NCBI GenBank assembly: GCA_016283195.1
Contig: JAEEML010000089.1
Coordinates: 1 to 63,521, forward strand
DNA from: Deltaproteobacteria bacterium
GTDB lineage: Bacteria > JAEEML01
DNA: 63,521 bases
Direction of reading: 5' to 3'
Below, one piece after another: positions 28,217-60,719 of this stretch. Position 1 is the stretch's first letter. Each line of letters opens with the position of its first letter. The notes under the pieces are model-generated. The model made no database searches and was not told where the DNA came from. It saw nothing but the letters and a program-made list of their open reading frames with translations. A program made the translations under genes and the position numbers.

Positions 28217-28304
28217 CTTGGCCTCCTTAGTTTAAAGTATATTGCCAGAAGTATTTCAAAAATGCTACACTTCCTGCTAGTGTTTTTTGCCAGAGGGGCC
28301 AGTT

Positions 28305-46901: not shown

Positions 46902-49900
46902 ATGAAAAGTAGAGCAAAACTACCTTTTTCGTTTATACTTTTTGCTTCCGGATTATTGGCCGGATGTAGCGGTCAAATAGCTGTAAGTGAAGATATTTTC
47001 AATTGCAGTCCCGAGCAACCCAACGGCATTTGTCCCACCGGTGAGGTGTGTGTGAATGGCCATTGCGAAGCCATCTATCAGCCTTGTTCGCCAGCGTATC
47101 CAAATGGTGTGTGTCCGGAAGGCACTTGCGTTAATGGTATTTGTATGACCAGTAGCGGACAGAAGGCCTGCTCCAAAAATAACCCAGGCGGCTATTGCGA
47201 TAATCCGAATGAAGTTTGTCTTAACGGCAAATGTGTGACGCCCAAACCGGAAGAAGCCTGTTCAAGGGATGCTCCCGACGGTTGGTGCGACCCAGGTTAT
47301 TGCTGTACAGGCGGTGCTTGTTGGCCCTGCGGCTGTGTGTGCGGTATCGATTGCCCGGCCGGCCGCTGCAGTAGCGGAGAAATTTGTGATAACGGTGTTT
47401 GTAAACCGGCAGAAACGGTAACCACCAAATGCGGTCCGGGCCAATGTTCCGGCCTTTGTGAATATGCTCAAAATTGTGTCGAAGATATAAAAGGTGATTG
47501 TTCTTGCCAGGCGGCAGCTCCGGCCAGCGGCTGCTCACCAACTAATCTGGCCGGTGATTGCCCGGCCGGGCAGTGGTGTTTAGGCGGCAAATGCCAGGAA
47601 ATTTCCGATGATATGTCTTGCGGTAAAAATTGCGGTAGCGGCATTTGCTCCGGCCATGCTTATTGCGTCGCCGATAGCGAAGGCTGCTCCTGCCAGGAAA
47701 ATGTATCGCCGGATTTAGTGTGCTCGGTTAGTAATCCCACCGGTTTATGTCCTGATGGCCTGGTGTGTAATGCCGGTAGTTGTTCGGTACCTGAATGTAG
47801 CTCACTTACTCCTTGGGGCGATTGCCCGGCCGGGCAGAGCTGCGTAAAAGGGCGCTGCCAGAACGGCGGTGATGAGTGTTCACCCAGCAATCCGAGCGGC
47901 GTTTGCAATGATATCTGCGATGGCGATAACTGTTATGAAGCTGTTTGTAATGCCGGTATTTGCGTGGCCGCTACTTGTAGCAAAGAGCATCTGCGCGGGC
48001 GCTGTGGCGGTGATTGTCTGATTTGCCATGAAGGCTCCTGTATCACCCCGCCCTGTAGTAAAGAATACGCCTGCGGTACCTGCCCCTCCTGCCAAGTTTG
48101 TAACGAAAACGCCGATAGCCCTGATTACGGTACTTGCGGCCCGGCCGCCTGTTCACTGGCCTGCCCTGAGGGTACCTGCTCCAGCGAGCGCGAGATTTGT
48201 ACCTCTTCCGGTTTTTGCGAAGTGCCTGCTTGCAGTGTGATTTACCCTTGGGGTGATTGCCGTGTCGGTATGTATTGTGAGGAAAATAAGGGCCCATGCG
48301 CCGATTTAGCTACCCCTGAAGATTGTGCTACCGATGTGAGTTGTACCTGGAATCAAAAACTTAATGGCTGTGTACGCAAAAATTACGGCCAATGTACACT
48401 GGAAGAGTGCGGCAGTGCTCCGGTCAGCAATCTTATTTGTAACAACCCGGCCTGTGAAGCTCTTGATAGCCAGAATGCCTGTGCCGCCGGTCCGGAATGT
48501 ACCTGGGGGCGCTGTAACGGCGGTGGAGCCTGTCCCACCATTTTAACCGAGGCTGATTGTGCGGCTAATGTCAATTGTTGGTGGCAAAATGGCTGTTTTG
48601 ACGGCCGGATGTGTGTTGAAGGTCATTGTACAACACCGCTTTGTAGCAAGCTCTATCCAAATGGCCGTTGTGATGAAGGATCCACCTGTTATGAAGGTAC
48701 CTGTGTTAAACTCGGTTGCGAAAGCGATAACGATTGCCAGATTCTTTCCGAAAAATGCGAGCAGTTGCCCATCGGTACCACCGGTTGTATAAAACAGCCC
48801 TGTAGCGTGGAAAAACCGGAAGGTGACTGTCTCCTTCTGGGCAATGAATACTTTGGTGAAATCTGTGATGGCGGTAATTGTGTGATACCCAGCTGCTCCG
48901 CTACTTATCCCGGCGGTGCTTGCGGCGATGCCGTTTGCGATGCCGCTCAAAATGAGGCTGCCTGTGCCACTGCCGCGCCGCATTGTCGCTGGCGTCCGGC
49001 TTGTGTGGCCATAGCTGGGCACAACGGGCCTGCTGCCGGTGTAAGCTGCGAAAATAATAGCGATAAATCGAGCTGCGAAGCTGTTTCCGGTTGTAAGTGG
49101 CAAGGTTGTACCGATGGGCGCATCTGTGCCGGCGGTAATTGTCTCCTGCCGCCTTGTAGCGAAAGTGTGCCCGATGGTTCCTGCCCGGCCGGTATGGCCT
49201 GCGAAGCCGGTAAATGTACACTCCAAAATTGCGGCCCGGTCAACCCGGCTGGCCCCTGTGTTTGCTCCGATTTGAACGAAACCGATTGTAAGGACACCAT
49301 TAAGGGCCTTGGCTGTATGTGGGCAGGCGGTGCCTGTGTCAATGATCCGGCAGCCACCGGCTTCCGTATTTGTCTTGGCGGCGTATGTAAACCTTTTGTC
49401 TGCGGTGCCGATTTTGGTATTGCTCCCTGTTTGGACAGCAGTTCTATTTGCGGCTTTACCGGTAGTAGCGGCGATACTTGTAACGTGGGTGACCCCGGCG
49501 GCGGTGACGGTCATGGTTCACCTTGCTGCTTTAAGCCTTCTTGTTGTGATACTTATCCCACCGGTGCTTGCGGCGGCGGCAGTGAGCGTTGCGTCGGCGG
49601 TACTTGTCAAAAACTCCCCTGTAGTCAAAATGCTCCTGATGGTGCCTGCGGGGCCAACCAGGTGTGTGATAACGGCGTTTGCAAGCAGGCCGCTTGCTCG
49701 GCCGAAAATCCCGGCGGCCATTGTGAATGTTCTATTTTGAGTAAAGCCGATTGCGCGGACAGCCAAAAAGGCTTTGGTTGTAAGTGGGATAGCAGTTCGG
49801 CGAGCTGCGTTGATGACCCCGATAGCGCAGATATCCGCAAATGTGCCGGCGGGGTGTGTAAGCCTTACCTCTGCGGCGCTGATTTTGCCGATGCTCCCTG

Positions 49901-52900
49901 TTTAGTGCCCGGTACCGTGTGTGATTTGGTGAAGCACGGCGAAACTTGCGAAACCAGCCAGCTGGTAAATAACGGCGACGGTATTAATACCAATTGTTGC
50001 TATACCCCAGTTTGTTCTACCGATTACCCCGGCGGCTCTTGCCAGCCCGGCTATATTTGTAACGGCGGCACCTGTCAGCAACTGCCTTGTAGCGCTAGTA
50101 ATCCGGCCGGTGCCTGCGGCGCCGGCAAAGTGTGTGTAAACGGCGAATGTCTCTCCGCGCCCTGTAGCCCGGAAGTCCCCAAAGGTACCTGCAATTGCGG
50201 AAGCATTACCCGCCAGGCTGATTGTACCGGCAGCGGCGCGGCTTATGGCTGCAAATGGCAAGGTAATAAATGTATCGACGATCCGGCCTCCAGTGCCTCA
50301 ACTAGCTGTCTAAACGGCACTTGCGCTCCTTATCTCTGCCGCGCCGAGTTCCCCAATGCTCCTTGTACAAGTAGCGGATATGTTTGTAAAATTCCTGACG
50401 CCGGCGAAGTGTGCGAGGGTACTAATAGCGGTTCCAGCGGTGCCTGCTGCGTCAAACCGGCTTGTAGCACTGATTATCCCGGCGGTGCCTGCCCCGACGG
50501 CCAGACCTGTTCCGGCGGTACTTGCGTGCCGCTGCCCTGTAGCCAGGTCAACCAGAACGGTGCCTGTGCCAGCGGCAAAATTTGTAAACAGGGCACCTGT
50601 GTAACGGCTCCTTGTAGTAGTACTGCTCCGAACGGTACTTGCGAAAATGCCGGCCAGCGCTGCTATAACGGTGAGTGCCTTGATTATGTCTGCAGCCGCG
50701 AATTCCCCGGCGCTGCCTGTACTCAGGAGGGGGCAGTTTGTGGCGCTTTGGTCGATCCTACCAAAGAGAGCTGCCTCTCAACCGCTCGCGGTGACGGCTC
50801 TTCAGCAGCCAGCCCCTGCTGCTTTGTACCTACTTGCTCCGCTACTTATAAGAGCGGTACCTGTCAGGATAGCTATATTTGTAAAAACGGCGAGTGTACG
50901 CAGCTGCCCTGTAGCCAGGTTAATAAAAACGGTGCCTGCGCCAGCGGCCAGTATTGTAATAATGGCACCTGTGAAGCCATTGCCTGCTCGCGGGAAAATC
51001 CCACCGGCCCCTGTGCCGATAATACCCAGCGCTGTGTAAACGGAGTTTGCAAAGATTACCTTTGCGGCGCCGATTTCCCGAGCGCTCCCTGCAGTGAAAG
51101 CGGGGCGGTGTGTGGCAAAATTGTTAATAGTGCTAAAGAGCGTTGCCTCAATAATAACGGCAACGGCACTTCTACTAATTGCTGTTTTGAGCCCTGGTGC
51201 TCCGCTCAATATCCCTCCGGCAAGTGCGCGGATGGCTATATTTGCAAGGGTGGCAATTGTGAGCAGTTACCTTGCAGCCCCAGTGCTCCTAATGGTGTTT
51301 GCGGTGCCAATCAGCGCTGTGTCGAAGGTCAATGTGAAGCGGCTCCCTGTAGTAATACCGCTCTAAACGGCACTTGCCTCTGTGCCGACTTAGGGCAGGC
51401 GGCTTGTACCAATCCCGAGAGCGGTTTTGGTTGCAAATGGCAGGGTGGCAAATGTATTGATGACCCGGATTCCTCTTTCTATCAAAAATGTGTTAACGGT
51501 CACTGCATACCATACCTTTGCGGTGCCAATTTTGTTAACGGTCCCTGCGAAAACGGCGGTGCGGTTTGCGGTGTGCCGAGCGGCCTCGATAGCTGCCTTA
51601 ACGGTGCGAATAATCCTTCAGCCGAAAGTCCTTGCTGTTTCATTCCTCACTGCTCCAGTACTTATAAAAACGGCAGTTGTGAAGAAGGCTCCATTTGTAA
51701 AGAGGGCGTTTGTACCAAGCTCCCCTGTAGCGTGGCTGTGCCCGATGGTGCTTGCCCCACCGGCCAGGAGTGTAGTAGCGGCGTTTGCATTAAATCCGTT
51801 TGTAGCCAGAGTGTGCAAGACGGGCGCTGTGAATGTAGTGATATAACTGTCGAAAGTATTTGTACCAATCCCGAGAGCGGCTTTGGCTGCATCTGGCAAG
51901 GCGGCAAATGTATTGATGACCCGGCTTCTACCAACAGCCGCCACTGTTTGAACGGCAATTGTACGCCATATCTTTGCAGCGCCGCTTTCCCGAATGCTCC
52001 TTGTGCCGTAAGTGGTACAGTATGCGGTAAGCCGGCAAATGGCGAGAGCTGCGCCGATGGTGGCAACCCGGCCGTGGCCTGCTGTTATGTGCCTAATTGT
52101 TCCAATACCTACCCGGGCGGCGCTTGTCCGGCCGGCCAGTATTGCAGCGGCGGCCACTGTGTGGCTTATCCCTGTAGCGCAACCAATCCTACCGGCGCCT
52201 GTCCGGCCAGCCAGGTTTGTGAAAATGGCTCCTGTCAGCTGGCAAAATGTAGCAATACCGCTCAAGATGGTACCTGCTATTGCTCTGATATTACCGAGCA
52301 ATCTATCTGCATGAGCAATGTCACCGGCTTTGGCTGCAAATGGCAAAATGGTAAATGTATTGATGACCCGGATTCTGTTGATAGTATGAGTTGCTCTGGC
52401 GGCAGCTGTCAGCCTTACCTCTGCGGCGCTAATTTCCCGAATGCTCCCTGTAGCGAGAGCGGAGCCGTTTGCGGTAAACTTGTTGATAGTACTAAAGAAT
52501 CTTGTGAAAATAATCGCGGCGATGGCGTAAACAGCAACTGCTGCTTTAAGCCTTGGTGCAGTAGCACTTATCCATCCGGCCAGTGTCAGAGCGGCTATGT
52601 GTGCAGCAACGGTACTTGTATGCAACTGCCTTGCAGTGCCGGTAATCCCACCGGTGCCTGTGGTGCCGGCCAATATTGTAATGCCGGTGTTTGCACTCGC
52701 TATGCCTGTTCCGATGAGCACCCCACCGGCACTTGCGCGGCCGGCAAAGTGTGTGAAAAGGATAACGGCGCCGCCCATTATAGCTGTAGTTCGCCAGATT
52801 GTTCGGCCTCTTATCCTTACGGCGAATGTCATGCTGCCGGTACTATTTGTGTAGCCGGTACTTGTGAAGCCACCTGCGGCACCGGTGCCGGGCAAAGTGC

Positions 52901-55900
52901 CACCGGTTATTGTTCCGGCGGTCTCGCCTGTGTCATGACCGCTTGTGCCAATTCTTGCGAAAATGATTACGATTGTGATGGCATTCCCAATAGCGTGGAA
53001 GGTAATGACGCTATTGATACCGATGGCGACGGTATCCCGGATAGCCGTGATATCGATAGCGATAACGATAGCATTCCCGATCGCGTTGAGATAGGACCGG
53101 ATCCGGCCCATCCCTTGGATAGCGATGGCAACGGTACCCCCGATTACCGCCAAACCGATAGCGACGCCGACGGCATTCCCGATAGTGTCGAAGTTGGCCC
53201 CATTCCCACCCAGCCAGTGGATAGTGATGGCGACGGTATTCCCGATTACCGCGATGTCGATAGCGACGGCGATCTTATTTATGACAAATTTGAAGGCCAG
53301 GGCGATGTTGATCATGATGGTATCCCAAATTATTTGGATGATGACAGCGATGGCGATGGCATCCCCGATAGCATCGAAGCGCGGCCAACTCCTTATGATG
53401 ATAGTAGTTTCCACGCCGGTGATATTCCGGCCGACCATGACGGCGACGGCACTTACGACTTCCTCGACCTCGATAGCGATAATGATGGCGTTCTCGATAA
53501 AGACGAAGATGTCAACGGCAACGGTATCATCGATTGCCAAGTCAACGGGCGCGGCGAAGTTGTCTATGTTTGTGAAGAGATTACCAATAAAGATGTCTGT
53601 CAGGCTCATGAATGTACTTGGAACGACGCCGCCAAAGTCTGCGGCGAAACCAGCTGCCCCAATAGCTGTGATGTCAATGCCTTTAATCCCGGCTGTAAAG
53701 ATGATCATGCCCGCTGCGTTCTTTCCGAAACTTCGCGTATTCATGTTGACAGTGATTGCGACGGCATGGGCGACGGCAACGATGGCCTCTTCTTGGCTTG
53801 CGCCGCCGACAATTTGAAGCCCATCAACCTCTTCTACGACCGCGATGCCGATATAGCTATGGCTCTCGAGCAGGCTTTTGACGAAGCCGGTAAATTTAGC
53901 GTCGGCGGCGTGCGCGGTATCTACTTTGATGCCTCTAATAGCAGCGCTGCTTATGGCGTTTCCGGTTTTGTTCTCGCTAAAACTCCGGCCAGCGCGGCCA
54001 TTAACGAGAGCACTCCGCGGCAAAAGGTTATTAAGCAGGAAGAGTACGATCGCGGCCTCTTGTCCTCCTTTAATCCGCAGGTGGTTATTAGCCGCTATAG
54101 CGAGACTTTTGACGGTTTTGCCACTTCCATCTTCCGCTATACTTTGACTAGTAGCGGCTCTGTTTCCAATGCCCGTACCAATGTGCTTAAAGCTCTGGCC
54201 GGCGGCGCCAATGTGGGGACGCCTATCGGTTACGGTCCCAATGCCACGGCATATACCTTAATTATTCAAACTATTTACCGCTATGATGACGGCGGCTCAA
54301 ACGGGCGGGTTATTCTCCTTGGCGCCATTATCCCCACCGCGCTCTATGGTTCCTGCGGGGCTAATAATACCAGCGGTACTTGTAATGCTTTGGCTTCCTG
54401 TAATTTTGTAAATAATAAGTGTGTGGAATATGATTGCCGGGCCATTAATGGAGCAGCTTCATGTAATAGTAATAATCACTGTACCTGGAATGATATTGAC
54501 GAAATTTGCGACAATAAGCAGCTGCCGCTTTTCTATGTGAATAACGTCACTTCCGGTTCCACGGTGACCCAGTTTGGTGATGACCTAGACAAGCTCTGCC
54601 AGAGCTTCAGCCAAAAATCCGGTAAGGTGGACTTCCTCTGGCTGCTCGATTTCTCCAACTCTATTTACCCGGCTCGCCAGCAAATTAAGGACTCTGCCTC
54701 AACATTCTTTGAATTACTGAATAAGACTGAGGCCGACTTCCGTGCAGCCCAGACCGGTGCTCATACTTTTGATGATAACCAATCGCTTTATAGTGGTGTT
54801 AATAATTATTCCGGACAATATTTTACTATGTTCTATGGATATAACACATCAGGTGTAGCAAATAGTCCTTGGCCACCTAACTATGATTTCCGCGCTTGTG
54901 ATTCTTTAAATGGTGTTTGGGTTGGAGCCAATGGTTGTTTGATTGATGAATTTACCGGTTCTTTGGCCTTTAGCGATGACGTAGCTAACCGTGATTATCT
55001 CTGGAATTGTGCTTCGCAAATTAAAGGGCCAGGTTGTACAACTAATTATACATGCACGGCTTGCGGCGGTGCCACCAGCGGTACTGTTTACGCACCGGAA
55101 TGTTATTTTGCCTCCCGTATGGTTTGTAAAAATACTGTCGGTAACTCTGAAACGCCGCTCTTAATGGCTGAATGGGCCATGTACCGCTACTTTGATAAAC
55201 ACATTTGCGCGGATGCCTTTGAAGATGGTTCTCTCCCAACGGCGGAGACTTGTGATACTCGTGAAGGCTGTTTCTGGTCCGGCGGAAAATGTATTCCCAA
55301 TAACTGTGCTTTAGCTACTACCGCAGCGCAGTGCGAGACGATGATAGAAGATAATACCAATGATGGTGTTAAGCTTATCGGTTGTCTCTGGAATAATCAG
55401 ACAAATCAATGTGTGCCAAATTATAGCTGTGAAGCACAGCCAGATGACTTTGCCTGTAGTAATATAACTATTCAGAATACTTGCAATTTACTTGGATGTA
55501 CGTGGAATAGTTGGAGAGGTACATGTTCTGGTACCTTAAATAGAAATACATATAAACGTTGTGAGGACCTAACAACGGAAGCTAATTGCAAACTTGGCGC
55601 GCCTCTTTGCTATTGGAACGGTTCTAGCTGTGGCTGGTCTGTATGTGATAATAATAGTAAGGATCGTCCTATAGCTACATACTCACGTTGTTCAGTGGCT
55701 ACTACTCAAGCCGCCTGTCAGCAAAGCACTACCTGTGTTTGGGAAGACGGAGTTTGCCGGGCTCTGCCACGTGAACGGATGCGTATCGATGCCACTCCCA
55801 TTATAGTGGCTGTTACGGATGAAGAAGAATGTTTCTTAAAAGATAGCGCCGGGCAATATGGCAATGGTAATGGCACTTATACCAAAGCCGCTTGTGGTGG

Positions 55901-58900
55901 TTCACAATCAACAGGTGATAGTAAAGACTTTTACTCTGGTAATGCGGCTGATTCTTATGGCTACAACTGGTGGAATAGTTCTACTAAGGGTTATTATGTA
56001 CGGCAGCAGCGCCAGGAATCTTTCTCGCGCTTCTTCCAATCGCGCGGTACTTTAGTCTTTACCTTAACTGGTGAAAAAGCTACTACTCAAACCAATGGCG
56101 GGTGTCAGCTTGATGGTGATGGAGATGGTAAAATAACAGCAAGTACTTCAGGTAACCTTACTGCTGATATTAATGCTCAGCCGGGTAATGCTCTCATTAG
56201 CGTGGCCGAGAATACCGGTGGTGGTTGGGGTTCTATTTGTGCCACCAACGTTTATCCGGCTGTTGAGAGTATCATCATCACCTCGCTCGCCAAATCCTCC
56301 GCTTACAAACTGGAAGCGGCTATCGACGGCAAAAAGGTGCAGCCTATCGGTTCCACAATCAAAGTGGTGAGCGAAGTTTGCGCCGATGACCCGGCCATGA
56401 CTTATATGAATTACAATGACCGTTGTAACCAGGGTGATGAATATAGCTGCCGGGCCAATGGCTGTGCTTGGAAGAATGGCAGCTGCTCCGGCTGTACCAA
56501 CCGCATCTCTAAAGTCATCCCCATGAGCCGTGAAAACGGCTTTGATTACGATGCCTTAAATAACACTATTACTCTCTTTGGCTCAGCCCGCCCGGCCCGC
56601 GGCCGCGATATTGTGGTTTCCTTCCGTTACTGGATCAATAACCCGCAGCTACCCGAAGGGCCCAGCACCAATACCTGTTCGTGCCCGGGTACTTCCGATT
56701 GTAGCCAGCTTTCCGGCGAAGCAGCTTGTAAAGCAACTGGTACCTGTACCTGGACCGGCCTCGAATGTACCGGCGAATATGCCAGTAACTGCAGCGCTAT
56801 AAATAGCCAATCGGCCTGCACCGCCGACTCGGCCTGTAAGTGGGAAAATGGTACTTGTAAGTTTGCCTGTGCTTGTGCCGGCGGTGCCCAGTGCGGCGGT
56901 CTCTCCTGTGAAAATCAAACGACCGAAAATGGCTGTAATGCCACTATCGGCTGCGTCTGGACTGTGGGTATGTGTATGTCCACCGGTATTTGCAAGATTG
57001 ATCCGGAGTGCGGCCATAGCTGTAATGAGTATCAAACCTGTAACCCCAATACCGGTATTTGCGAATGTAATCTCGATTGTAATAACCAATGCGGCTTGGG
57101 CGAGATTTGTAATTACAACCAGGAATGTAGCGGTATTGGCGGCGAAGCGGCTTGTAGAGCGGTAGAGAGTGAAGGCGTTTGTTTCTGGCGCATAGATTCT
57201 CTTATCTGCGAAGACGGCGATTGCGGCAAATGTTTCTGCGACAAGACCTGCGGTGGTTGCGGCAAAGGGCAGTTGTGCGATAGTGATGAAAATTCCAATA
57301 CTTGCGGCCAGTGCCTCTGCAATACCACTTGTAGCGATACCAATTGCAATTATAACTGCGCGAGTGTTAATAATGCCGCTGATTGTGATGATTGGCCAGG
57401 CTGCTCTTGGGTAAACGGCAGCTGTAAGCGCACCGCCTACATGGAGTGCGATCCCGATCTAAATAGCGCTTCTTGCGGCTTTTGCGTGGTGGATAGCGAT
57501 TGTAGCTTACACCCCTGCGAAGAGGGCGAAATTTGTAACCCCACCACCGGTATGTGCGAATGTGACACCACCTGCGGCGGCGGCTGTAAAGCTGGCTTTA
57601 TTTGCGACAGCACCCCGAGTAGTCCGACCTGTGGTCAGTGCCATTGTGATGAAAACTGTGGTGGTGAGACGCCGCCCAGTGGGCAAAAGTGTGACGACAA
57701 CACCAATAGTGCTACCTGTGGCCTCTTTACCTGTGACCTCACTTGTGGTAGCCCCTGTGGTGCACACACCTATTGTGATGAAGATGAAGATTCGCCAACT
57801 TGTGGCCAGTGTGTTTGTGATACTACCTGTAACCACACAACACCCAACATCGGTATGAAGTGCGATGATAACACCAATAGCGCCACTTGTGGCCAGATTA
57901 TCTGTGGCGCGGCTTGTAACGGCGGCTGCCTGGCTGGCCAGATCTGTAATGAAGCCCTGGGCACTTGTGGTCAGTGTGTCTGCGATACCACTTGCGGTGG
58001 TTCCTGCCCAACCGGCCAAACCTGCGACAGTGACACAGGTAGTGCCACCTGTGGCCAGTGTGTTTGTGACACTACCTGCGGTGGCTCTTGCCCGGCCCAT
58101 TATAATTGCAATAGTGACATCACTAGCCCCACCTGTGGCCAGTGTGAGTGCGATACAAACTGTACCGGTCAGGATATTGGCATTGGTAAGAAGTGCGATG
58201 ATAATCCCTCTAGCCCCACTTGCGGCCAGGTAATTTGCGACACTACCTGTAACGGCGGCTGTGCCAGCGGCCAGAAATGTATCAGCGAACCCGCTAATCC
58301 CAAGTGCGGCCAGTGCGAATGTGATACCACTTGCGGCGGGGTGACTCCGGCAGCCGGTAGTGGCCTTAAGTGCGACAAAGATACCAATAGCCCCACTTGT
58401 GGCCAATTGGTTTGTGACACTACCTGTGGCGGGGCTGCTCCAGGCACCGGCATGAAGTGCGATACCAGCACCACCAGCCCCACTTGCGGCCAAATTGTTT
58501 GTGACACCGAGTGTGGTAACCGCTGCACCGGCGAAAAGGTTTGCGACAGCAGTGCCACCAGCGCCACCTGCGGTACCTGTATTTGCGGTGATGAGTGCGG
58601 CGGTCCTTGCCCGGTTGGCCAAACCTGTAACCCCGCCCTGGGTGATTGCGGCCAGTGCGTTTGCGACACTACTTGCGGCGGCGGTGAATGTCCCACCGGC
58701 CAGAAGTGCGATGATAACAGTAACAGCCCAACCTGCGGCGCCTGTATTTGCGACATCACCTGTCATGGGGCTACACCCGGAGCCGGCCAGAAGTGTGACA
58801 CCAATACTGCCAGTGCTACCTGTGGCCAGATTGTTTGCGATACTTCCTGTGGTAATAGCTGTTCTGGCGGCAAAGTGTGTGACGATAATATTAATAGCGC

Positions 58901-60719
58901 CACTTGCGGCCGCTGTGTTTGCCCGGATGGTGACGATTCCAGCTGTCTTGCCAGCCAAAAATGGCAAGCGGCGAGCGGCAGCGAATGTGGTAAGTGCGTT
59001 TGTGATACCACTTGTAAGAATAGCTGCACCGTGGGCCAGAAGTGCGATGACAATACTGGTAGCGGTACCTGTGGTCAATGTGTCTGCGATACCAATTGTA
59101 CCGGCCAGCCAATAGGTGCCGGGCAAAAGTGCGATAATAACCCCAGCAGTAATACTTGCGGTCAGCCGATTTGCGATACTAACTGTGGTGGCGTAAATTG
59201 CGGTGACGGCAAAGTGTGTGACAGCAATATCAGCAGTGCCACTTGTGGTAAATGTATCTGCGCTGAGGGTAGCGATGACGACTGTCTGCCCGGCCAAAAG
59301 TGGGATAAGAGCCAGGGTGAGTGTGGCGCTTGCGTTTGCGATATCACCTGCGGCGGCGGTTGTCTCTCCGGTCAAAAGTGCGATAGTACCATTGGTAGCC
59401 CCACTTGCGGCCAGTGTATCTGTGACACCACTTGCGGTGGTCCTTGCCCGGATAATTGGGATTGTGATAACGATAAGAATAGCCCGACTTGCGGTCAGTG
59501 TCAGTGTGATACCACTTGTGGCGGCGGCCAATGTACAGGTGGCAAGGTGTGCGATGACAACAGCGCCTCGCAAACTTGCGGCCAGTGTATTTGTGATCAA
59601 ACCTGTGGCGGAGCTTGTCCGGCCGGCCAGAGCTGTGACCAAAACCTGGCCTCACAAACTTGCGGCCAGTGTATTTGTGACACCACTTGCGGCGGAGCCT
59701 GCCCCACCGGCCAGAAATGCGACGGAACTTTGGGCAGCGCTACCTGCGGCCAGTGCCAATGTGATACCACTTGCGGCTTTGCAAATGCGGCCTCTATTCC
59801 GGCCGGCAAGAGCTGCGATAATAATCCGGCCAGCGCTACCTGCGGTCAGCTCATTTGTGATACCACCTGTGGCGGCAAAACTCCGGGTCTGGGTGAAAAA
59901 TGCGATAACAATCCGCTAAGCCCCACTTGCGGTGAGCTTATTTGCGATACCACCTGCGGCGGCGCTTACGGTCTTGGCCTGGTGTGTGACAGCGACCCGG
60001 ATAGCCCCACCTGCGGACAGCTGGTGTGCGACCAGACTTGCGGCGGTTCCTGCCCGGTAGGCCAGATGTGCGACAGCAATTATAACAGTCTCACCTGTGG
60101 TCAGTGCCTCTGTGACACCACCTGTGGAGATGTCACGCCGGCTCCCGGTATGACTTGCGATAGCAACGAGCTGAGTCCCACCTGCGGCCAGATTGTCTGT
60201 GATGTCACTTGCGGCGGTCCGTGTGATACCGGCAGCAGTTGTGATACCAATACGGCGAGCCCCACCTGCGGCCAGTGTGTTTGCGACCAAACATGTGGCG
60301 GCCTCTGTGAAGCCGATTCCAGCAAATACTGCGATAAAGAGCTGAATAGTGCCACCTGCGGTCAGTGCCTCTGCGATGCCACCTGCGGCGGTTCCTGTCC
60401 AACCGGCCAGTGCTGCGATGGCAATGACGAATGCGGCGCTATTCAGGATGAAATGAGCTGTCTGGCCAAAGATGGCTGTATATATCGTGCCGGTATCGGC
60501 TGTGAGTCACTTACCTGCGGCCAGTGTCAGGTTGATCCTACCTGCTGTAACTGCCAAGAATTGCCGAACGGCGCTACCAGCTGCTGTGCTGAGGGTACAG
60601 TTTGTAATCCCAATACCGGCCTTTGCGAAGTCAATGCCGATTGCTGTGCCGGGCGCGAGCCGGCCGAGCAATACCGCTGCAATATCTTCACCGGCGAGTG
60701 TATCTTCATCGCCGGGTGA
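46902..60719 (+). CDS. Giant (4605 aa) Cys-rich surface lipoprotein with nested Cys repeats, TSP3-like Ca loops, a VWA-like domain and ~37 six-Cys tandem units
   Basis: One uninterrupted 13,818-nt ORF. Signal peptide plus lipobox (LLAGC, Cys at 46965-46967). See the repeat features and findings below. No C-terminal TM or sorting signal that I recognise (ends ...CIFIAG). Confidence 0.9.
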   Translation: MKSRAKLPFSFILFASGLLAGCSGQIAVSEDIFNCSPEQPNGICPTGEVCVNGHCEAIYQPCSPAYPNGVCPEGTCVNGICMTSSGQKACSKNNPGGYCDNPNEVCLNGKCVTPKPEEACSRDAPDGWCDPGYCCTGGACWPCGCVCGIDCPAGRCSSGEICDNGVCKPAETVTTKCGPGQCSGLCEYAQNCVEDIKGDCSCQAAAPASGCSPTNLAGDCPAGQWCLGGKCQEISDDMSCGKNCGSGICSGHAYCVADSEGCSCQENVSPDLVCSVSNPTGLCPDGLVCNAGSCSVPECSSLTPWGDCPAGQSCVKGRCQNGGDECSPSNPSGVCNDICDGDNCYEAVCNAGICVAATCSKEHLRGRCGGDCLICHEGSCITPPCSKEYACGTCPSCQVCNENADSPDYGTCGPAACSLACPEGTCSSEREICTSSGFCEVPACSVIYPWGDCRVGMYCEENKGPCADLATPEDCATDVSCTWNQKLNGCVRKNYGQCTLEECGSAPVSNLICNNPACEALDSQNACAAGPECTWGRCNGGGACPTILTEADCAANVNCWWQNGCFDGRMCVEGHCTTPLCSKLYPNGRCDEGSTCYEGTCVKLGCESDNDCQILSEKCEQLPIGTTGCIKQPCSVEKPEGDCLLLGNEYFGEICDGGNCVIPSCSATYPGGACGDAVCDAAQNEAACATAAPHCRWRPACVAIAGHNGPAAGVSCENNSDKSSCEAVSGCKWQGCTDGRICAGGNCLLPPCSESVPDGSCPAGMACEAGKCTLQNCGPVNPAGPCVCSDLNETDCKDTIKGLGCMWAGGACVNDPAATGFRICLGGVCKPFVCGADFGIAPCLDSSSICGFTGSSGDTCNVGDPGGGDGHGSPCCFKPSCCDTYPTGACGGGSERCVGGTCQKLPCSQNAPDGACGANQVCDNGVCKQAACSAENPGGHCECSILSKADCADSQKGFGCKWDSSSASCVDDPDSADIRKCAGGVCKPYLCGADFADAPCLVPGTVCDLVKHGETCETSQLVNNGDGINTNCCYTPVCSTDYPGGSCQPGYICNGGTCQQLPCSASNPAGACGAGKVCVNGECLSAPCSPEVPKGTCNCGSITRQADCTGSGAAYGCKWQGNKCIDDPASSASTSCLNGTCAPYLCRAEFPNAPCTSSGYVCKIPDAGEVCEGTNSGSSGACCVKPACSTDYPGGACPDGQTCSGGTCVPLPCSQVNQNGACASGKICKQGTCVTAPCSSTAPNGTCENAGQRCYNGECLDYVCSREFPGAACTQEGAVCGALVDPTKESCLSTARGDGSSAASPCCFVPTCSATYKSGTCQDSYICKNGECTQLPCSQVNKNGACASGQYCNNGTCEAIACSRENPTGPCADNTQRCVNGVCKDYLCGADFPSAPCSESGAVCGKIVNSAKERCLNNNGNGTSTNCCFEPWCSAQYPSGKCADGYICKGGNCEQLPCSPSAPNGVCGANQRCVEGQCEAAPCSNTALNGTCLCADLGQAACTNPESGFGCKWQGGKCIDDPDSSFYQKCVNGHCIPYLCGANFVNGPCENGGAVCGVPSGLDSCLNGANNPSAESPCCFIPHCSSTYKNGSCEEGSICKEGVCTKLPCSVAVPDGACPTGQECSSGVCIKSVCSQSVQDGRCECSDITVESICTNPESGFGCIWQGGKCIDDPASTNSRHCLNGNCTPYLCSAAFPNAPCAVSGTVCGKPANGESCADGGNPAVACCYVPNCSNTYPGGACPAGQYCSGGHCVAYPCSATNPTGACPASQVCENGSCQLAKCSNTAQDGTCYCSDITEQSICMSNVTGFGCKWQNGKCIDDPDSVDSMSCSGGSCQPYLCGANFPNAPCSESGAVCGKLVDSTKESCENNRGDGVNSNCCFKPWCSSTYPSGQCQSGYVCSNGTCMQLPCSAGNPTGACGAGQYCNAGVCTRYACSDEHPTGTCAAGKVCEKDNGAAHYSCSSPDCSASYPYGECHAAGTICVAGTCEATCGTGAGQSATGYCSGGLACVMTACANSCENDYDCDGIPNSVEGNDAIDTDGDGIPDSRDIDSDNDSIPDRVEIGPDPAHPLDSDGNGTPDYRQTDSDADGIPDSVEVGPIPTQPVDSDGDGIPDYRDVDSDGDLIYDKFEGQGDVDHDGIPNYLDDDSDGDGIPDSIEARPTPYDDSSFHAGDIPADHDGDGTYDFLDLDSDNDGVLDKDEDVNGNGIIDCQVNGRGEVVYVCEEITNKDVCQAHECTWNDAAKVCGETSCPNSCDVNAFNPGCKDDHARCVLSETSRIHVDSDCDGMGDGNDGLFLACAADNLKPINLFYDRDADIAMALEQAFDEAGKFSVGGVRGIYFDASNSSAAYGVSGFVLAKTPASAAINESTPRQKVIKQEEYDRGLLSSFNPQVVISRYSETFDGFATSIFRYTLTSSGSVSNARTNVLKALAGGANVGTPIGYGPNATAYTLIIQTIYRYDDGGSNGRVILLGAIIPTALYGSCGANNTSGTCNALASCNFVNNKCVEYDCRAINGAASCNSNNHCTWNDIDEICDNKQLPLFYVNNVTSGSTVTQFGDDLDKLCQSFSQKSGKVDFLWLLDFSNSIYPARQQIKDSASTFFELLNKTEADFRAAQTGAHTFDDNQSLYSGVNNYSGQYFTMFYGYNTSGVANSPWPPNYDFRACDSLNGVWVGANGCLIDEFTGSLAFSDDVANRDYLWNCASQIKGPGCTTNYTCTACGGATSGTVYAPECYFASRMVCKNTVGNSETPLLMAEWAMYRYFDKHICADAFEDGSLPTAETCDTREGCFWSGGKCIPNNCALATTAAQCETMIEDNTNDGVKLIGCLWNNQTNQCVPNYSCEAQPDDFACSNITIQNTCNLLGCTWNSWRGTCSGTLNRNTYKRCEDLTTEANCKLGAPLCYWNGSSCGWSVCDNNSKDRPIATYSRCSVATTQAACQQSTTCVWEDGVCRALPRERMRIDATPIIVAVTDEEECFLKDSAGQYGNGNGTYTKAACGGSQSTGDSKDFYSGNAADSYGYNWWNSSTKGYYVRQQRQESFSRFFQSRGTLVFTLTGEKATTQTNGGCQLDGDGDGKITASTSGNLTADINAQPGNALISVAENTGGGWGSICATNVYPAVESIIITSLAKSSAYKLEAAIDGKKVQPIGSTIKVVSEVCADDPAMTYMNYNDRCNQGDEYSCRANGCAWKNGSCSGCTNRISKVIPMSRENGFDYDALNNTITLFGSARPARGRDIVVSFRYWINNPQLPEGPSTNTCSCPGTSDCSQLSGEAACKATGTCTWTGLECTGEYASNCSAINSQSACTADSACKWENGTCKFACACAGGAQCGGLSCENQTTENGCNATIGCVWTVGMCMSTGICKIDPECGHSCNEYQTCNPNTGICECNLDCNNQCGLGEICNYNQECSGIGGEAACRAVESEGVCFWRIDSLICEDGDCGKCFCDKTCGGCGKGQLCDSDENSNTCGQCLCNTTCSDTNCNYNCASVNNAADCDDWPGCSWVNGSCKRTAYMECDPDLNSASCGFCVVDSDCSLHPCEEGEICNPTTGMCECDTTCGGGCKAGFICDSTPSSPTCGQCHCDENCGGETPPSGQKCDDNTNSATCGLFTCDLTCGSPCGAHTYCDEDEDSPTCGQCVCDTTCNHTTPNIGMKCDDNTNSATCGQIICGAACNGGCLAGQICNEALGTCGQCVCDTTCGGSCPTGQTCDSDTGSATCGQCVCDTTCGGSCPAHYNCNSDITSPTCGQCECDTNCTGQDIGIGKKCDDNPSSPTCGQVICDTTCNGGCASGQKCISEPANPKCGQCECDTTCGGVTPAAGSGLKCDKDTNSPTCGQLVCDTTCGGAAPGTGMKCDTSTTSPTCGQIVCDTECGNRCTGEKVCDSSATSATCGTCICGDECGGPCPVGQTCNPALGDCGQCVCDTTCGGGECPTGQKCDDNSNSPTCGACICDITCHGATPGAGQKCDTNTASATCGQIVCDTSCGNSCSGGKVCDDNINSATCGRCVCPDGDDSSCLASQKWQAASGSECGKCVCDTTCKNSCTVGQKCDDNTGSGTCGQCVCDTNCTGQPIGAGQKCDNNPSSNTCGQPICDTNCGGVNCGDGKVCDSNISSATCGKCICAEGSDDDCLPGQKWDKSQGECGACVCDITCGGGCLSGQKCDSTIGSPTCGQCICDTTCGGPCPDNWDCDNDKNSPTCGQCQCDTTCGGGQCTGGKVCDDNSASQTCGQCICDQTCGGACPAGQSCDQNLASQTCGQCICDTTCGGACPTGQKCDGTLGSATCGQCQCDTTCGFANAASIPAGKSCDNNPASATCGQLICDTTCGGKTPGLGEKCDNNPLSPTCGELICDTTCGGAYGLGLVCDSDPDSPTCGQLVCDQTCGGSCPVGQMCDSNYNSLTCGQCLCDTTCGDVTPAPGMTCDSNELSPTCGQIVCDVTCGGPCDTGSSCDTNTASPTCGQCVCDQTCGGLCEADSSKYCDKELNSATCGQCLCDATCGGSCPTGQCCDGNDECGAIQDEMSCLAKDGCIYRAGIGCESLTCGQCQVDPTCCNCQELPNGATSCCAEGTVCNPNTGLCEVNADCCAGREPAEQYRCNIFTGECIFIAG
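49149..52880 (+). repeat. Eight ~115-135-aa super-repeats inside the giant gene
   Basis: Each unit contains PCS..xPxGxC, a C-x-W module (GFGCKWQGGKCIDDP), P-Y-L-C-G-A-x-F-P-N-A-P-C, CCF-x-P-x-CS..YP.G.C and QLPCS. The YLCGA-type landmark occurs 8 times: FVCGADFGIAPC, YLCGADFADAPC, YLCRAEFPNAPC, YVCSREFPGAAC, YLCGADFPSAPC, YLCGANFVNGPC, YLCSAAFPNAPC, YLCGANFPNAPC. Confidence 0.85.
52966..53540 (+). repeat. About 12 thrombospondin-type-3-like D-x-D-x-D-G-x-x-D calcium-binding loops
   Basis: DTDGDGIPDSRD, DSDNDSIPDRVE, DSDGNGTPDYRQ, DSDADGIPDSVE, DSDGDGIPDYRD, DSDGDLIYDKFE, DVDHDGIPNYLD, DSDGDGIPDSIE, DHDGDGTYDFLD, DSDNDGVLDKDE and others. Confidence 0.8.
57222..60430 (+). repeat. About 37 tandem 26-32-aa six-Cys units (consensus T-C-G-Q-C-x-C-D-T-T-C-G-G-x-C-P-x-G-Q-x-C-D-x4-S-x)
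   Basis: Counted by hand from the translation. Units run head to tail in frame with small length variation. One C-x-W module interrupts unit 2. Confidence 0.85.

What the first reader, a model, noticed from the sequence alone, without database searches (positions are those of the whole stretch)
57222..60430. About 37 six-Cys tandem units conserved as peptide but diverged at synonymous sites
**Unit consensus.** T-C-G-Q-C-x-C-D-T-T-C-G-G-x-C-P-x-G-Q-x-C-D-x4-S-x, 26-32 aa long, with 6 Cys.

**Synonymous divergence.** Adjacent units at 57963 and 58047 encode the identical 16-aa peptide TCGQCVCDTTCGGSCP. They nevertheless differ in 10 of 16 codons, all synonymous: ACT/ACC, GGT/GGC, GTC/GTT, TGC/TGT, GAT/GAC, ACC/ACT, ACT/ACC, GGT/GGC, TCC/TCT, CCA/CCG.

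**What this implies.** The array is old and under strong purifying selection on the peptide. It is not a recent slippage expansion or an assembly stutter. The DNA divergence also protects it from recombinational collapse.

**Sub-pattern.** Alternate units replace the G-G-x-C-P loop with a longer Cys-free loop (for example GGVTPAAGSGLKC, GGAAPGTGMKC), hinting at a higher-order two- or three-unit period.

**Possible fold or function.** The C-x2-C-x-C clustering resembles metallothionein or beta-helical antifreeze-type scaffolds, but I cannot assign it.
Basis: seen in the sequence. Interest (0 to 1): 0.7.

Follow-up and report, generated by a model that had tools for sequence, protein, structure and literature searches.

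The report
Giant disulfide-bead rod in Fibrobacter adhesin
The repeats are real, old and strongly conserved: 36 small cysteine-knotted beads, probably EGF-like, that form the greatly lengthened tail of a 4,605-residue surface lipoprotein of a Fibrobacter bacterium, related to the integrin-like gliding adhesin CglD of myxobacteria.

Summary
Observation confirmed. Window 57219-60419 encodes 36 units of 26-32 aa inside one ORF (46902-60719, 4,605 aa, 608 Cys, lipoprotein signal). The 10-of-16 synonymous-codon example is exact. Across 561 unit pairs pS is 0.78 (saturated) and pN is 0.35. TRF finds no DNA repeat.

A metagenomic ortholog fragment keeps units 1-21 one-to-one with no indel. Array dN/dS is 0.08 at dS of about 1.3, and 91 of 91 Cys are kept.

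C15 of unit i is present or absent exactly with C5 of unit i+1 (11/0/0/22). C11 and C21 are lost together. Family-wide, C7(i) goes with C2(i+1) (58/1/0/142). The structural module therefore runs C7..C5' (27-28 aa, always 4 or 6 Cys), with inferred bonds 1-5, 2-4, 3-6. These are the first three bonds of integrin-type EGF domains. Modules are joined by one residue.

No Pfam, NCBIfam or PDB match exists. Only 24 protein clusters among 1.84 billion carry the unit, all giant CglD-like lipoproteins, with at most 7 units each.

Most likely this is a disulfide-stapled rod or tether of an adhesin. It is not a metallothionein or an antifreeze-type beta-helix. I rate it a new variant of a known kind.

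The parts
46902..60719 (+). Single gene for a 4,605-aa protein with 608 Cys (13.2%); the array is its C-terminal quarter.
46902..46967 (+). Lipoprotein signal peptide with lipobox (MKSRAKLPFSFILFASGLLAG|C, Cys22).
   Evidence: Read directly from the translation. The same feature is present in homologs P0027, P0029, P0035 and P0037.
47004..52900 (+). N-terminal half made of a different Cys-rich repeat (C-S-x3-P-x-G-x-C-P-x-G-x2-C-x2-G-x-C type). It has 296 Cys and longer super-repeats of about 150-190 aa marked by GFGCKW.
   Evidence: no Pfam match
52965..53531 (+). Thrombospondin type-3-like Ca-binding DxDxDG repeats.
   Evidence: Pfam TSP_3 scores 27.2 bits against a cut-off of 25. The motifs are listed.
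54528..54935 (+). Region aligned to positions 612-753 of the CglD profile (the VWA-type part). It holds a DxSxS MIDAS-like motif, DFSNS, at 54648-54662.
   Evidence: Pfam VWA models do not detect it.
56517..57122 (+). Start of the Cys-rich stalk, aligned to positions 924-1116 of 1124 in the CglD profile.
   Evidence: E=3.5e-6, 25 bits
57219..57626 (+). Units u1-u3. u2 is interrupted by a 68-aa Cys-rich insert (57342-57545) that contains a short-junction, C2-less module.
57627..60419 (+).
57645..60368 (+). The same array in the structural register: 32 modules running from C7(i) to C5(i+1), each 25-31 aa and separated by one residue. 19 modules have six Cys, 13 have four and none has an odd number.
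60420..60716 (+). C-terminal Cys-rich cap (about 99 aa) ending ...CIFIAG. It is conserved in P0037 (...CVYIGG), and the whole family ends in G-G.

Best explanation
**What it is.** The array is the massively expanded C-terminal 'Cys-rich stalk' of a giant outer-surface lipoprotein in a Fibrobacter genome. The protein has the architecture of the CglD-like (beta-integrin-like) adhesins of Myxococcota: lipobox, Cys-rich repeats, TSP3 Ca-binding repeats, a VWA-type region with DxSxS, and an EGF-like stalk.

**The building block.** It is a 27-28-residue module running from C7 of one unit to C5 of the next: C-D-T-T-C-G-G-x-C-P-x-G-Q-x-C-D-x4-S-x-T-C-G-Q-C.
- Three disulfides are inferred: C7-C2' (1-5), C11-C21 (2-4) and C15-C5' (3-6).
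- Each bond can be dropped as a pair. The C15-C5' bond is replaced by a longer T-P loop plus a hydrophobic residue.
- Consecutive modules are separated by a single residue (C5'-x-C7').

**How it most likely works.** With about one cross-link per 9 residues and one-residue linkers, roughly 33 modules should form a long, stiff, protease-resistant string of beads. My inference is a length of tens of nanometres. It would act as a spacer or force-bearing tether for the adhesive head, in the way EGF-like stalks do in integrin beta subunits and, by report, in CglD.

**Shown.**
- Repeat anatomy.
- Age and purifying selection.
- Pairwise Cys covariation.
- Family relationship.
- Rarity of the module and the exceptional copy number.

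**Inferred.**
- Actual disulfide formation.
- Rod shape and length.
- Adhesin or tether role.
For: **Coding and selection.**
- One ORF with a lipoprotein signal.
- Ortholog L007 is collinear over 21 units. Array dN/dS is 0.076-0.080 against 0.143 upstream, and 91 of 91 Cys are kept.

**Cys covariation.**
- C15(i) against C5(i+1): 11/0/0/22, p=5e-9. The same-unit pairing C15(i) against C5(i) shows no association (p=1).
- C11 and C21 are lost together in u19 and u23 (p=0.002).
- Across 30 family proteins, C7(i) absent goes with a short junction lacking C2(i+1): 58/1/0/142, p=3e-50.
Within this window a cut before C11 does so too, so the family-wide data are what fix the register at C7.

**Comparison with integrin EGF domains.**
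- The 1-5, 2-4, 3-6 pattern equals the first three bonds of integrin EGF domains (1-5, 2-4, 3-6, 7-8; PMC12383024).
- Integrin beta2 carries C-S-G-L-G-D-C-V-C-G-Q-C-L-C-H and C-D-T-I-N-C. hhalign places its C5-G-x-C6-x-C7 on our C2-G-Q-C5-x-C7.

**Structure prediction.**
- AlphaFold2 on three units gives pLDDT 81, with hairpin strands x-x-C21 and C5'-x-C7'.
- All six Foldseek top hits are tandem EGF proteins, though none is significant.

**Family relationship.**
- The CglD profile aligns to the VWA-type region and to the stalk start.
- TSP_3 passes its Pfam cut-off.
- CglD is described as a beta-integrin-like surface lipoprotein with EGF-like repeats in a Cys-rich stalk and DTT-sensitive folding (bioRxiv 10.1101/2023.10.19.562135).
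- Homologs share the whole architecture but carry at most 7 strict units, mostly in doublets. The window has 36.
Against: - No coordinates were available, so the disulfide map rests on covariation and parity, not on measured S-S distances or chemistry.
- In the window's contiguous array C2 and C7 never vary. The C7(i)-C2(i+1) bond therefore rests on family-wide data and two upstream modules.
- There is no significant sequence or fold match to any EGF or I-EGF entry. The hhalign result is 7% probability over 10 columns.
- The lipid anchor is N-terminal and the array is C-terminal. The array is thus not a stalk between membrane and head as in integrins. It may be a distal arm with its own binding role.
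- Fibrobacter is a strict anaerobe of reducing habitats. I did not establish whether it can form and keep about 300 disulfides.
- The VWA fold could not be confirmed: the AlphaFold2 model of the central region failed (pLDDT 35) and Pfam VWA models did not hit.
- No gliding (Glt) genes lie in the window.
Confidence: 0.62

Rival explanations
1. The array is a multivalent binding surface rather than a passive rod. The conserved acidic and hydroxyl loops (C-D-x-[DN]-x2-S-x-T and C-D-T-T-C), repeated about 33 times, would bind Ca2+ and/or a polymeric substrate such as plant cell-wall polysaccharide, giving avidity.
For: - The loop between C21 and C2' is rich in D/N/S/T, and D8, T9, T10 and D22 are highly conserved.
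- The array is distal to the N-terminal lipid anchor.
- The copy number is expanded only in the Fibrobacter lineage, a genus known from general knowledge as a cellulose-adhering fibre degrader.
Against: - The same motif is equally conserved in Myxococcota and Bdellovibrionales MAG proteins that carry only 2-7 units. The conserved residues therefore look structural rather than substrate-specific.
- In the ortholog comparison, replacements concentrate in the loops (unit positions 12-18 and 22-26). The Cys, positions 2-3, 7-8 and 11 (C2, G3, C7, D8, C11), and position 19 are fixed. This fits a scaffold with variable surface loops.
- No carbohydrate-binding or Ca-binding EGF profile matches.
Confidence: 0.18
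2. The array is a beta-solenoid of the insect-antifreeze type. Successive 14- or 28-residue turns would stack into a helix stapled by disulfides, presenting a flat Thr-rich face.
For: - T1, T9 and T10 are conserved, the period is regular and Cys density is high.
- I had no model coordinates to exclude stacking.
Against: - AlphaFold2 (pLDDT 81) gives one short two-stranded hairpin per unit, not stacked parallel strands.
- The Foldseek top hits are beads-on-a-string EGF proteins, with no beta-helix among them.
- All three inferred disulfides are local to a 27-aa module that is separable at a one-residue linker. Modules tolerate 25-31 aa lengths and loop insertions, and homologs use them singly or in pairs between other domains. 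A cooperative solenoid would not tolerate this.
Confidence: 0.05
3. The array is a metal-thiolate (metallothionein-like or Zn-knuckle) domain in which the cysteines bind metals rather than forming disulfides. This could suit an anaerobe in a reducing habitat.
For: - C-x2-C-x-C clustering and 13-20% Cys.
- The host is a Fibrobacter, a genus of strict anaerobes by general knowledge. Its capacity for disulfide formation was not established here (one search found nothing).
Against: - The protein has a lipoprotein export signal.
- Cysteines are lost strictly two at a time, in three specific partner pairs, and every module keeps an even count. Tetrahedral metal sites would be lost in fours or tolerate odd numbers.
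- Lost pairs are replaced by a hydrophobic residue plus a longer loop, as expected for a buried cystine.
- No His or other ligand is conserved.
- For the related CglD, DTT shifts its mobility, consistent with disulfides.
Confidence: 0.04
4. The array is a recent slippage expansion, an assembly stutter or a non-coding artefact.
For: None beyond the periodic peptide pattern.
Against: - TRF finds no DNA repeat.
- Mean nt identity between units is 0.56, pS is saturated and the longest exact repeat is 26 nt.
- An independent metagenome contig carries the same 21 units in the same order at dS of about 1.3 and dN/dS of 0.08.
Confidence: 0.01

Closest known systems
CglD of Myxococcus xanthus (NCBIfam NF033765; beta-integrin-like gliding adhesin; bioRxiv 10.1101/2023.10.19.562135)
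   Same: - N-terminal lipoprotein signal.
- TSP3-type DxDxDG Ca-binding repeats.
- A VWA-type region with DxSxS.
- A C-terminal Cys-rich stalk of EGF-like repeats.
- The profile aligns to the window protein at the VWA-type region (positions 612-753) and at the stalk start (924-1116).
   Different: - Scores are 25-38 bits against an equivalog cut-off of 400.
- The window protein is four times longer (4,605 aa against about 1,130).
- It has an extra N-terminal Cys-rich half of about 2,000 aa and about 36 stalk units, where the CglD profile ends about 200 residues into the stalk.
- The host is a Fibrobacter, not a gliding myxobacterium, and no Glt genes are nearby.
Integrin beta-subunit I-EGF domains (e.g. 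beta2 I-EGF3, PDB 1L3Y; 3K6S chain B)
   Same: - Inferred bonds 1-5, 2-4, 3-6 match the first three I-EGF bonds, including the integrin-specific 1-5 bond.
- Shared C-x5-C ... C-G-x-C-x-C-[DH] motif with the same Cys roles, and C-D-T-x-C at the start.
- Tandem arrangement in the stalk of a VWA-type adhesin.
   Different: - Six Cys, not eight: the C7-C8 sub-domain is missing, and the I-EGF 'C7' position serves as Cys 1 of the next module.
- The C4-C5 spacing is 8 residues instead of 1.
- The module is 28 aa instead of about 40.
- No significant sequence, profile or fold match. Homology is unproven.
Canonical EGF-like tandem arrays (Notch, fibrillin, NELL1, LRP2)
   Same: - Small disulfide-knotted beta-hairpin beads in long tandem arrays that form extracellular rods.
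- All six best (non-significant) Foldseek neighbours belong to this class.
- The C-x-C junction and the C-x5-C spacing resemble EGF C2-C3 and C4-x-C5.
   Different: - No Pfam EGF hit even at E<=10.
- The bond set can be read as 1-3, 2-4, 5-6 only if neighbouring domains interleave.
- There are no Ca-binding EGF consensus residues.
Tenebrio-type antifreeze beta-helix and metallothioneins
   Same: High Cys density, short period, Thr next to Cys.
   Different: - The period is 28, not 12, and there is no TCT ladder.
- The predicted structure is hairpin beads.
- The protein is exported and shows strict pairwise Cys covariation.

Membership tests
Integrin-type EGF (I-EGF) domain | Eight cysteines bonded 1-5, 2-4, 3-6, 7-8 (PMC12383024). 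| tested here: not met
   The module has six (or four) Cys. Covariation supports 1-5, 2-4, 3-6, but the 7-8 pair and its sub-domain are absent.
Integrin-type EGF (I-EGF) domain | Significant match to EGF or I-EGF sequence profiles, or to integrin beta chains. | tested here: not met
   - Pfam finds nothing at E<=10.
- A PDB profile search gives 0 hits at E<=10.
- hhalign against beta2 I-EGF2-4 gives 7% probability over 10 columns.
Integrin-type EGF (I-EGF) domain | Fold superposes on solved I-EGF or EGF domains. | tested here: inconclusive
   Foldseek of the pLDDT-81 model against PDB gives best E=3.1 and TM 0.25. All six hits are EGF arrays and none is an integrin. The method is weak for 28-aa knots.
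CglD (NCBIfam NF033765, equivalog) | Whole-protein score at or above the curated cut-off (400 bits). | tested here: not met
   29.3 bits for the whole protein and 25-38 bits for segments.
CglD-like beta-integrin-like lipoproteins (architecture) | Lipoprotein signal, TSP3 Ca-binding repeats and a Cys-rich EGF-like C-terminal stalk. | tested here: met
   - Lipobox LLAG|C.
- TSP_3 scores 27.2 against a cut-off of 25.
- The stalk start aligns to CglD profile positions 924-1116.
- Homologs are collinear.
CglD-like beta-integrin-like lipoproteins (architecture) | VWA domain with a MIDAS motif (DxSxS). | tested here: inconclusive
   - DFSNS lies at aa 2583-2587, within the stretch aligned to CglD positions 612-753.
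- No Pfam VWA hit.
- The AlphaFold2 model of the region failed (pLDDT 35).
CglD-like beta-integrin-like lipoproteins (function) | Works with the Glt gliding machinery at focal adhesions. | not testable with these tools
   No glt or cglB genes lie among the window's neighbours. The rest of the genome was not available.
Metallothionein | Small cytosolic protein whose Cys thiolates cluster around metals, with no disulfides. | tested here: not met
   The protein is an exported 4,605-aa lipoprotein. Cys are lost only as specific pairs, and all modules keep an even count. Metal content is not testable here.
Insect antifreeze beta-helix (TmAFP type) | 12-residue TCTxSxxCxxAx turns stacked in a beta-solenoid with one intra-turn disulfide. 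| tested here: not met
   The period is 26-32 aa and there is no TCT motif. The predicted structure is isolated two-stranded hairpins.
DNA-level tandem repeat (slippage or VNTR) | Head-to-tail copies alike at the nucleotide level. | tested here: not met
   TRF finds nothing at the unit period. Mean nt identity is 0.56 and pS is 0.78.

The most novel reading that the evidence does not exclude
The 28-residue module is a genuine bacterial homolog of the integrin-specific I-EGF domain. It would be a condensed form that keeps the integrin-only C1-C5 bond and the C-G-x-C-x-C motif but lacks the C7-C8 sub-domain. On this reading, the CglD-like proteins of Myxococcota, Bdellovibrionota and Fibrobacter share ancestry with the whole head-plus-stalk of integrin beta subunits, not just the VWA fold. 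The Fibrobacter protein would then be the longest known natural concatemer of such modules, and a tractable model for how disulfide-linked EGF rods evolve and bear force.
Probability: 0.2. Interest if true: 0.8.

Novelty: new variant of a known kind. Interest (0 to 1): 0.5.

Why it matters
**An unannotated module.**
- It defines a compact cysteine-knot module with no Pfam, NCBIfam or PDB match, and gives it a testable disulfide map derived purely from natural 'knock-out' covariation.
- The module is extremely rare: 24 protein clusters among 1.84 billion.
- In one Fibrobacter lineage it has been multiplied about five-fold beyond any other known protein. It has then been held unit-for-unit under strong purifying selection.

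**A question about disulfides in anaerobes.**
- A strict anaerobe from a reducing habitat encodes a protein that apparently needs about 300 disulfides.
- This raises a concrete question about oxidative folding in Fibrobacterota.

**A lead on integrin origins.**
- If the I-EGF resemblance reflects homology, it bears directly on the bacterial origin of integrin-like adhesion machinery.

**Practical use.**
- The array is a natural, non-recombinogenic design for a long, stiff, cross-linked protein rod.

Tried and rejected
- **Overlapping six-unit windows as an MSA (A1).** MAFFT aligned them by identity in staggered fashion, which is useless as a paralog MSA, although it exposed the 4-unit period. 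I replaced it with 11 non-overlapping 3-unit windows (A2).
- **AlphaFold2 of the central VWA-type region with 6 homologs (A3).** The model had pLDDT 35 and pTM 0.27 and was unusable. I ran no fold search on it.
- **Foldseek against PDB and PDB sequence-profile search for the units.** Nothing was significant.
- **Pfam and NCBIfam at E<=10 on units, the N-terminal repeats and the C-terminal cap.** No family matched.
- **Genome-collection scan.** It used a narrow back-translated pattern and returned only 6 MAG loci (Myxococcota, 'Deltaproteobacteria', Bdellovibrionales). It could not show whether M. xanthus CglD itself carries the unit.
- **Word-indexed homolog search with the central region.** It gave only 3 hits and no Fibrobacter ortholog.
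- **First regex for C7/C2' covariation.** It was contaminated by mis-anchoring and by units followed by inserted modules. I tightened it.
- **Literature search for Dsb systems in Fibrobacter.** It found nothing useful.
- **hhalign against integrin beta2 I-EGF2-4.** It gave the predicted register but was not significant.
- **Dating the expansion from unit similarity.** Window units are no closer to each other (0.531) than to units from other phyla (0.539), so no phylogenetic signal is left.
- **Sigma-70 promoter and terminator scans.** Results were at chance level.
Full report
**1. What is there**

The finding lies inside one very long ORF, window 46902..60719 (+), encoding 4,605 aa. The protein starts with a lipoprotein signal (MKSRAKLPFSFILFASGLLAG|C). 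It contains 608 Cys (13.2%).

Splitting the C-terminal quarter on the anchor x-C-G-x3-C gives 35 units, plus one partial unit after an insert. That makes 36 units from 57219 to 60419, each 26-32 aa long.
- u2 is interrupted by a 68-aa Cys-rich insert.
- u4-u36 (57627-60419) are uninterrupted.

I number the six Cys C2, C5, C7, C11, C15 and C21.

**2. The synonymous-divergence claim**

The example is exact. The units at 57963 and 58047 encode the same 16 residues with the ten listed synonymous differences.

Systematically:
- Over 595 unit pairs, amino-acid identity is 0.51 and nucleotide identity is 0.56.
- 51.1% of codons for identical residues differ. Independent draws from the gene's codon usage would give 52.5-54.4%.
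- Nei-Gojobori pS averages 0.776, with 56% of pairs at or above the 0.75 saturation limit. pN averages 0.347.
- Tandem Repeats Finder sees no array.

So the paralogous units are saturated at silent sites.

**3. A direct measure of selection and stability**

A metagenome scan found a 3,630-bp contig (L007, JAEEGL015527515.1) encoding an ortholog fragment.
- It aligns collinearly with the window protein.
- Units u1-u21 correspond one-to-one, without a single indel over 624 codons. The upstream non-repeat region has two large indels.
- Array dN/dS is 0.076-0.080 (dS 1.2-1.3, dN 0.10). The upstream part gives 0.143.
- All 91 aligned Cys are conserved, 46 of them with a TGT/TGC switch.
- Replacements concentrate in the loops, at unit positions 12-18 and 22-26.

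The unit order therefore predates a divergence with more than one synonymous change per site, and the peptide is under strong purifying selection.

**4. Is the DNA divergence itself selected?**

I shuffled synonymous codons among positions encoding the same residue, 300 times.
- The real array shares more k-mers between units than the shuffles (k=12: 267 against 166 +/- 27).
- Its longest exact repeat is 26 nt against 21 +/- 2.

There is no sign of selection for diversification. Low recombinogenicity is a by-product of age.

**5. Higher-order pattern**

Amino-acid identity peaks at lag 4 (0.568 against 0.49-0.51), with weaker peaks at lags 8 and 12. MAFFT spontaneously aligned windows in a 4-unit register. 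Lag-4 pairs have lower pN (0.300) but the same saturated pS. The super-repeat is thus visible only in the peptide.

**6. The register is offset: cysteine covariation**

Three partner pairs emerge.

- **C15(i) with C5(i+1).** Presence of C15 in unit i matches presence of C5 in unit i+1 without exception (11 absent/absent, 22 present/present, 0 discordant; p=5e-9). C15 and C5 of the same unit are unrelated (p=1). When the pair is absent, C15 is replaced by a longer T-P-containing loop and C5 by I/L/V/F/P.
- **C11 with C21.** They are lost together in u19 and u23 (p=0.002). P0045 carries tandem copies of that same 4-Cys variant.
- **C7(i) with C2(i+1).** C2 and C7 never vary in the window's contiguous array. 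Across 30 family proteins, units lacking C7 are followed by a short junction ([DN]-P-x-x-G-x) lacking C2 of the next unit: 58/1/0/142, p=3e-50. The single exception is a mis-anchored match. Such C7-less units keep their own C2, which excludes a C2-C7 bond within one unit.

Cutting the array before C7 gives 32 modules of 25-31 aa. Nineteen have six Cys, thirteen have four and none is odd.

The inferred module is C7-D-T-T-C11-G-G-x-C15-P-x-G-Q-x-C21-D-x4-S-x-T-C2'-G-Q-C5'. Its bonds are 1-5, 2-4 and 3-6, and one residue separates it from the next module.

**7. Structure**

AlphaFold2 on three units, with the 11-row paralog alignment, gave pLDDT 81. The only regular elements are short strands at x-x-C21 and C5'-x-C7', meaning one hairpin per module.

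Foldseek against the PDB gave nothing significant (best E=3.1). All six listed hits are tandem EGF proteins: Notch1 EGF4-7, NELL1 EGF1-3, LRP2 and PfRIPR.

A profile search of PDB sequences gave no hit at E<=10. Pfam and NCBIfam give nothing for the units even at E<=10. No coordinates were returned, so the disulfide map could not be checked on the model.

**8. What protein is this?**

*Host.* The neighbouring trans-sulfuration enzyme gene (Cys/Met-metabolism PLP family; 62057-63217) is 95% identical to a Fibrobacter sp. RefSeq protein. The host is therefore a Fibrobacter.

*Family.* NCBIfam's CglD profile (adventurous-gliding lipoprotein of Myxococcus) aligns weakly to two stretches:
- aa 2543-2678, at profile positions 612-753;
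- aa 3206-3407, at profile positions 924-1116 of 1124. This is just upstream of the array.

The scores are far below the equivalog cut-off. Further features:
- The first stretch contains DFSNS, a DxSxS MIDAS-type motif.
- Pfam TSP_3 passes its cut-off in aa 2001-2300.

[quoted passage not shown] Its folding is DTT-sensitive (bioRxiv 10.1101/2023.10.19.562135).

*Homologs.* Those retrieved share the whole architecture: lipobox, C-S-x3-P-x-G-x-C repeats, TSP3, the central region with GGGWGSICA and VSYRYW motifs, a Cys-rich stalk, and a C-terminus ending G-G. Those with a taxonomic label come from Myxococcota, 'Deltaproteobacteria' and Bdellovibrionales MAGs.

*Closest full-length relative.* P0037 is 38% identical over the central 930 aa. 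It shares the C-terminal cap but has only a handful of units.

**9. Rarity and expansion**

An exhaustive HMM search of 1.84 billion representative proteins with the 3-unit profile found 24 proteins at E<=1e-3. Most are 1,300-3,400-aa members or partial sequences of this family. The rest are short fragments or small proteins of 95-600 aa.

By a strict motif count, the window protein has 36 units. The next best have 7, usually as doublets between other Cys-rich modules.

Window units are no more similar to each other (0.531) than to units from other phyla (0.539). The peptide has drifted to the family's constraint floor, and the expansion cannot be dated from the units alone.

**10. Comparison with integrin EGF domains**

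Integrin beta I-EGF domains have eight Cys bonded 1-5, 2-4, 3-6, 7-8 (PMC12383024). The inferred module has exactly the first three bonds.

Verified integrin beta2 sequence shows:
- C3-S-G-L-G-D-C4-V-C5-G-Q-C6-L-C7-H, and
- C1-D-T-I-N-C2.

Our module has:
- C15-P-x-G-Q-x-C21 ... C2'-G-Q-C5'-x-C7'-D, and
- C7-D-T-T-C11.

hhalign places I-EGF C5-G-x-C6-x-C7 on our C2-G-Q-C5-x-C7, as the bond map predicts. The match covers only 10 columns, with P=0.005 and 7% probability.

Differences:
- There is no C7-C8 sub-domain. The 'C7' position doubles as Cys 1 of the next module.
- Eight residues, rather than one, lie between Cys 4 and Cys 5.
- The module is 28 aa against about 40.

The resemblance is a lead. 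Membership is not established.

**11. Most likely mechanism**

- *Shown:* an exported lipoprotein, modules with pairwise-covarying Cys, one-residue linkers, strong purifying selection on Cys and core residues with variable loops, and a family context of integrin-like adhesins.
- *Inferred:* each module is a three-disulfide hairpin bead. About 33 beads with minimal linkers make a long, stiff, protease-resistant rod, tens of nm long by analogy with EGF arrays. The rod would extend or mechanically couple the adhesive head.
- *Caveat:* the lipid anchor is N-terminal, so the array is a distal arm rather than a membrane-proximal stalk.

Rivals are scored in the rival-explanations section of this report: a multivalent Ca/glycan-binding surface, a beta-solenoid, metal-thiolate clusters and an artefact.

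**12. Verdict**

The fold suggestions, the unit register and the adaptive reading of the DNA divergence are not supported.

The object is a new, extreme variant of a known kind: the EGF-like Cys-rich stalk of CglD-type adhesins. It is built from an unannotated and very rare module whose disulfide map can be read from natural covariation. I score interest at 0.5.

Noticed in passing
window 47004-52900 (aa 35-2000 of the same gene): The N-terminal half is a second, different Cys-rich repeat system (C-S-x3-P-x-G-x-C-P-x-G-x2-C-x2-G-x-C; 296 Cys). It has super-repeats of about 150-190 aa marked by G-F-G-C-K-W-Q-G-G-K-C-I-D-D-P. It has no Pfam match.
   Followed up: partly
window 28287-31745 (+): A 1,152-aa ORF with an apparent lipobox (LFCLGC), 106 Cys and no Pfam match. 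It sits in the lowest-GC, highest-GC-skew part of the window (GC 0.395-0.444). It looks like another unannotated Cys-rich surface lipoprotein.
   Followed up: no
window 39744-42587 (+): An alpha-amylase-family protein with a lipobox (LNLAAC) and N-terminal EGF-like modules (Pfam EGF, E=1.2e-4). EGF-like Cys modules recur on exported proteins of this anaerobe.
   Followed up: no
window 60420-60716, and the C-termini of P0001-P0008 and P0027-P0039: Nearly every family member ends a few residues after a last Cys with G-G (window ...CIFIAG; others ...CVPSGG, ...CEPFGG, ...CVYIGG). This is a conserved C-terminal end of unknown role, possibly a processing or recognition tag.
   Followed up: no
window 58902-58982 (u19) and 59241-59318 (u23); protein P0045: These are 4-Cys variant units lacking C11 and C21, with Trp at the C21 position (C-G-x-C-x-C-x-[DE]-G-[DS]-D-[SD]-[SD]-C-L-x2-Q-K-W). 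A 418-aa protein, P0045, consists largely of six tandem copies of this same variant, so it is a subtype in its own right.
   Followed up: partly
window 57507-59642 (-) and other long antisense or off-frame ORFs in the array: A 711-aa antisense ORF and several ORFs of 100-240 aa overlap the array. They are Thr/Ala/Gly-rich mirror images of the Cys/Gly/Thr codon pattern and are almost certainly not genes.
   Followed up: no
aa 2690-2960 and 3180-3520 of the gene (about 54970-55780 and 56440-57460): Recurrent modules of about 35 aa of the type C-x5-7-C-x-W-x5-8-C are inserted in the VWA-type region and between stalk units, here and in all homologs. In homologs they sit in the C21-C2' junction without removing C2'.
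   Followed up: no
L007 1-1040, against window aa 2879-3100: The ortholog fragment differs from the window by two large indels in the central region: a Cys-rich insertion of about 45 aa in L007 and a DGDGDG-containing insertion of 17 aa in the window. The repeat array has none.
   Followed up: partly
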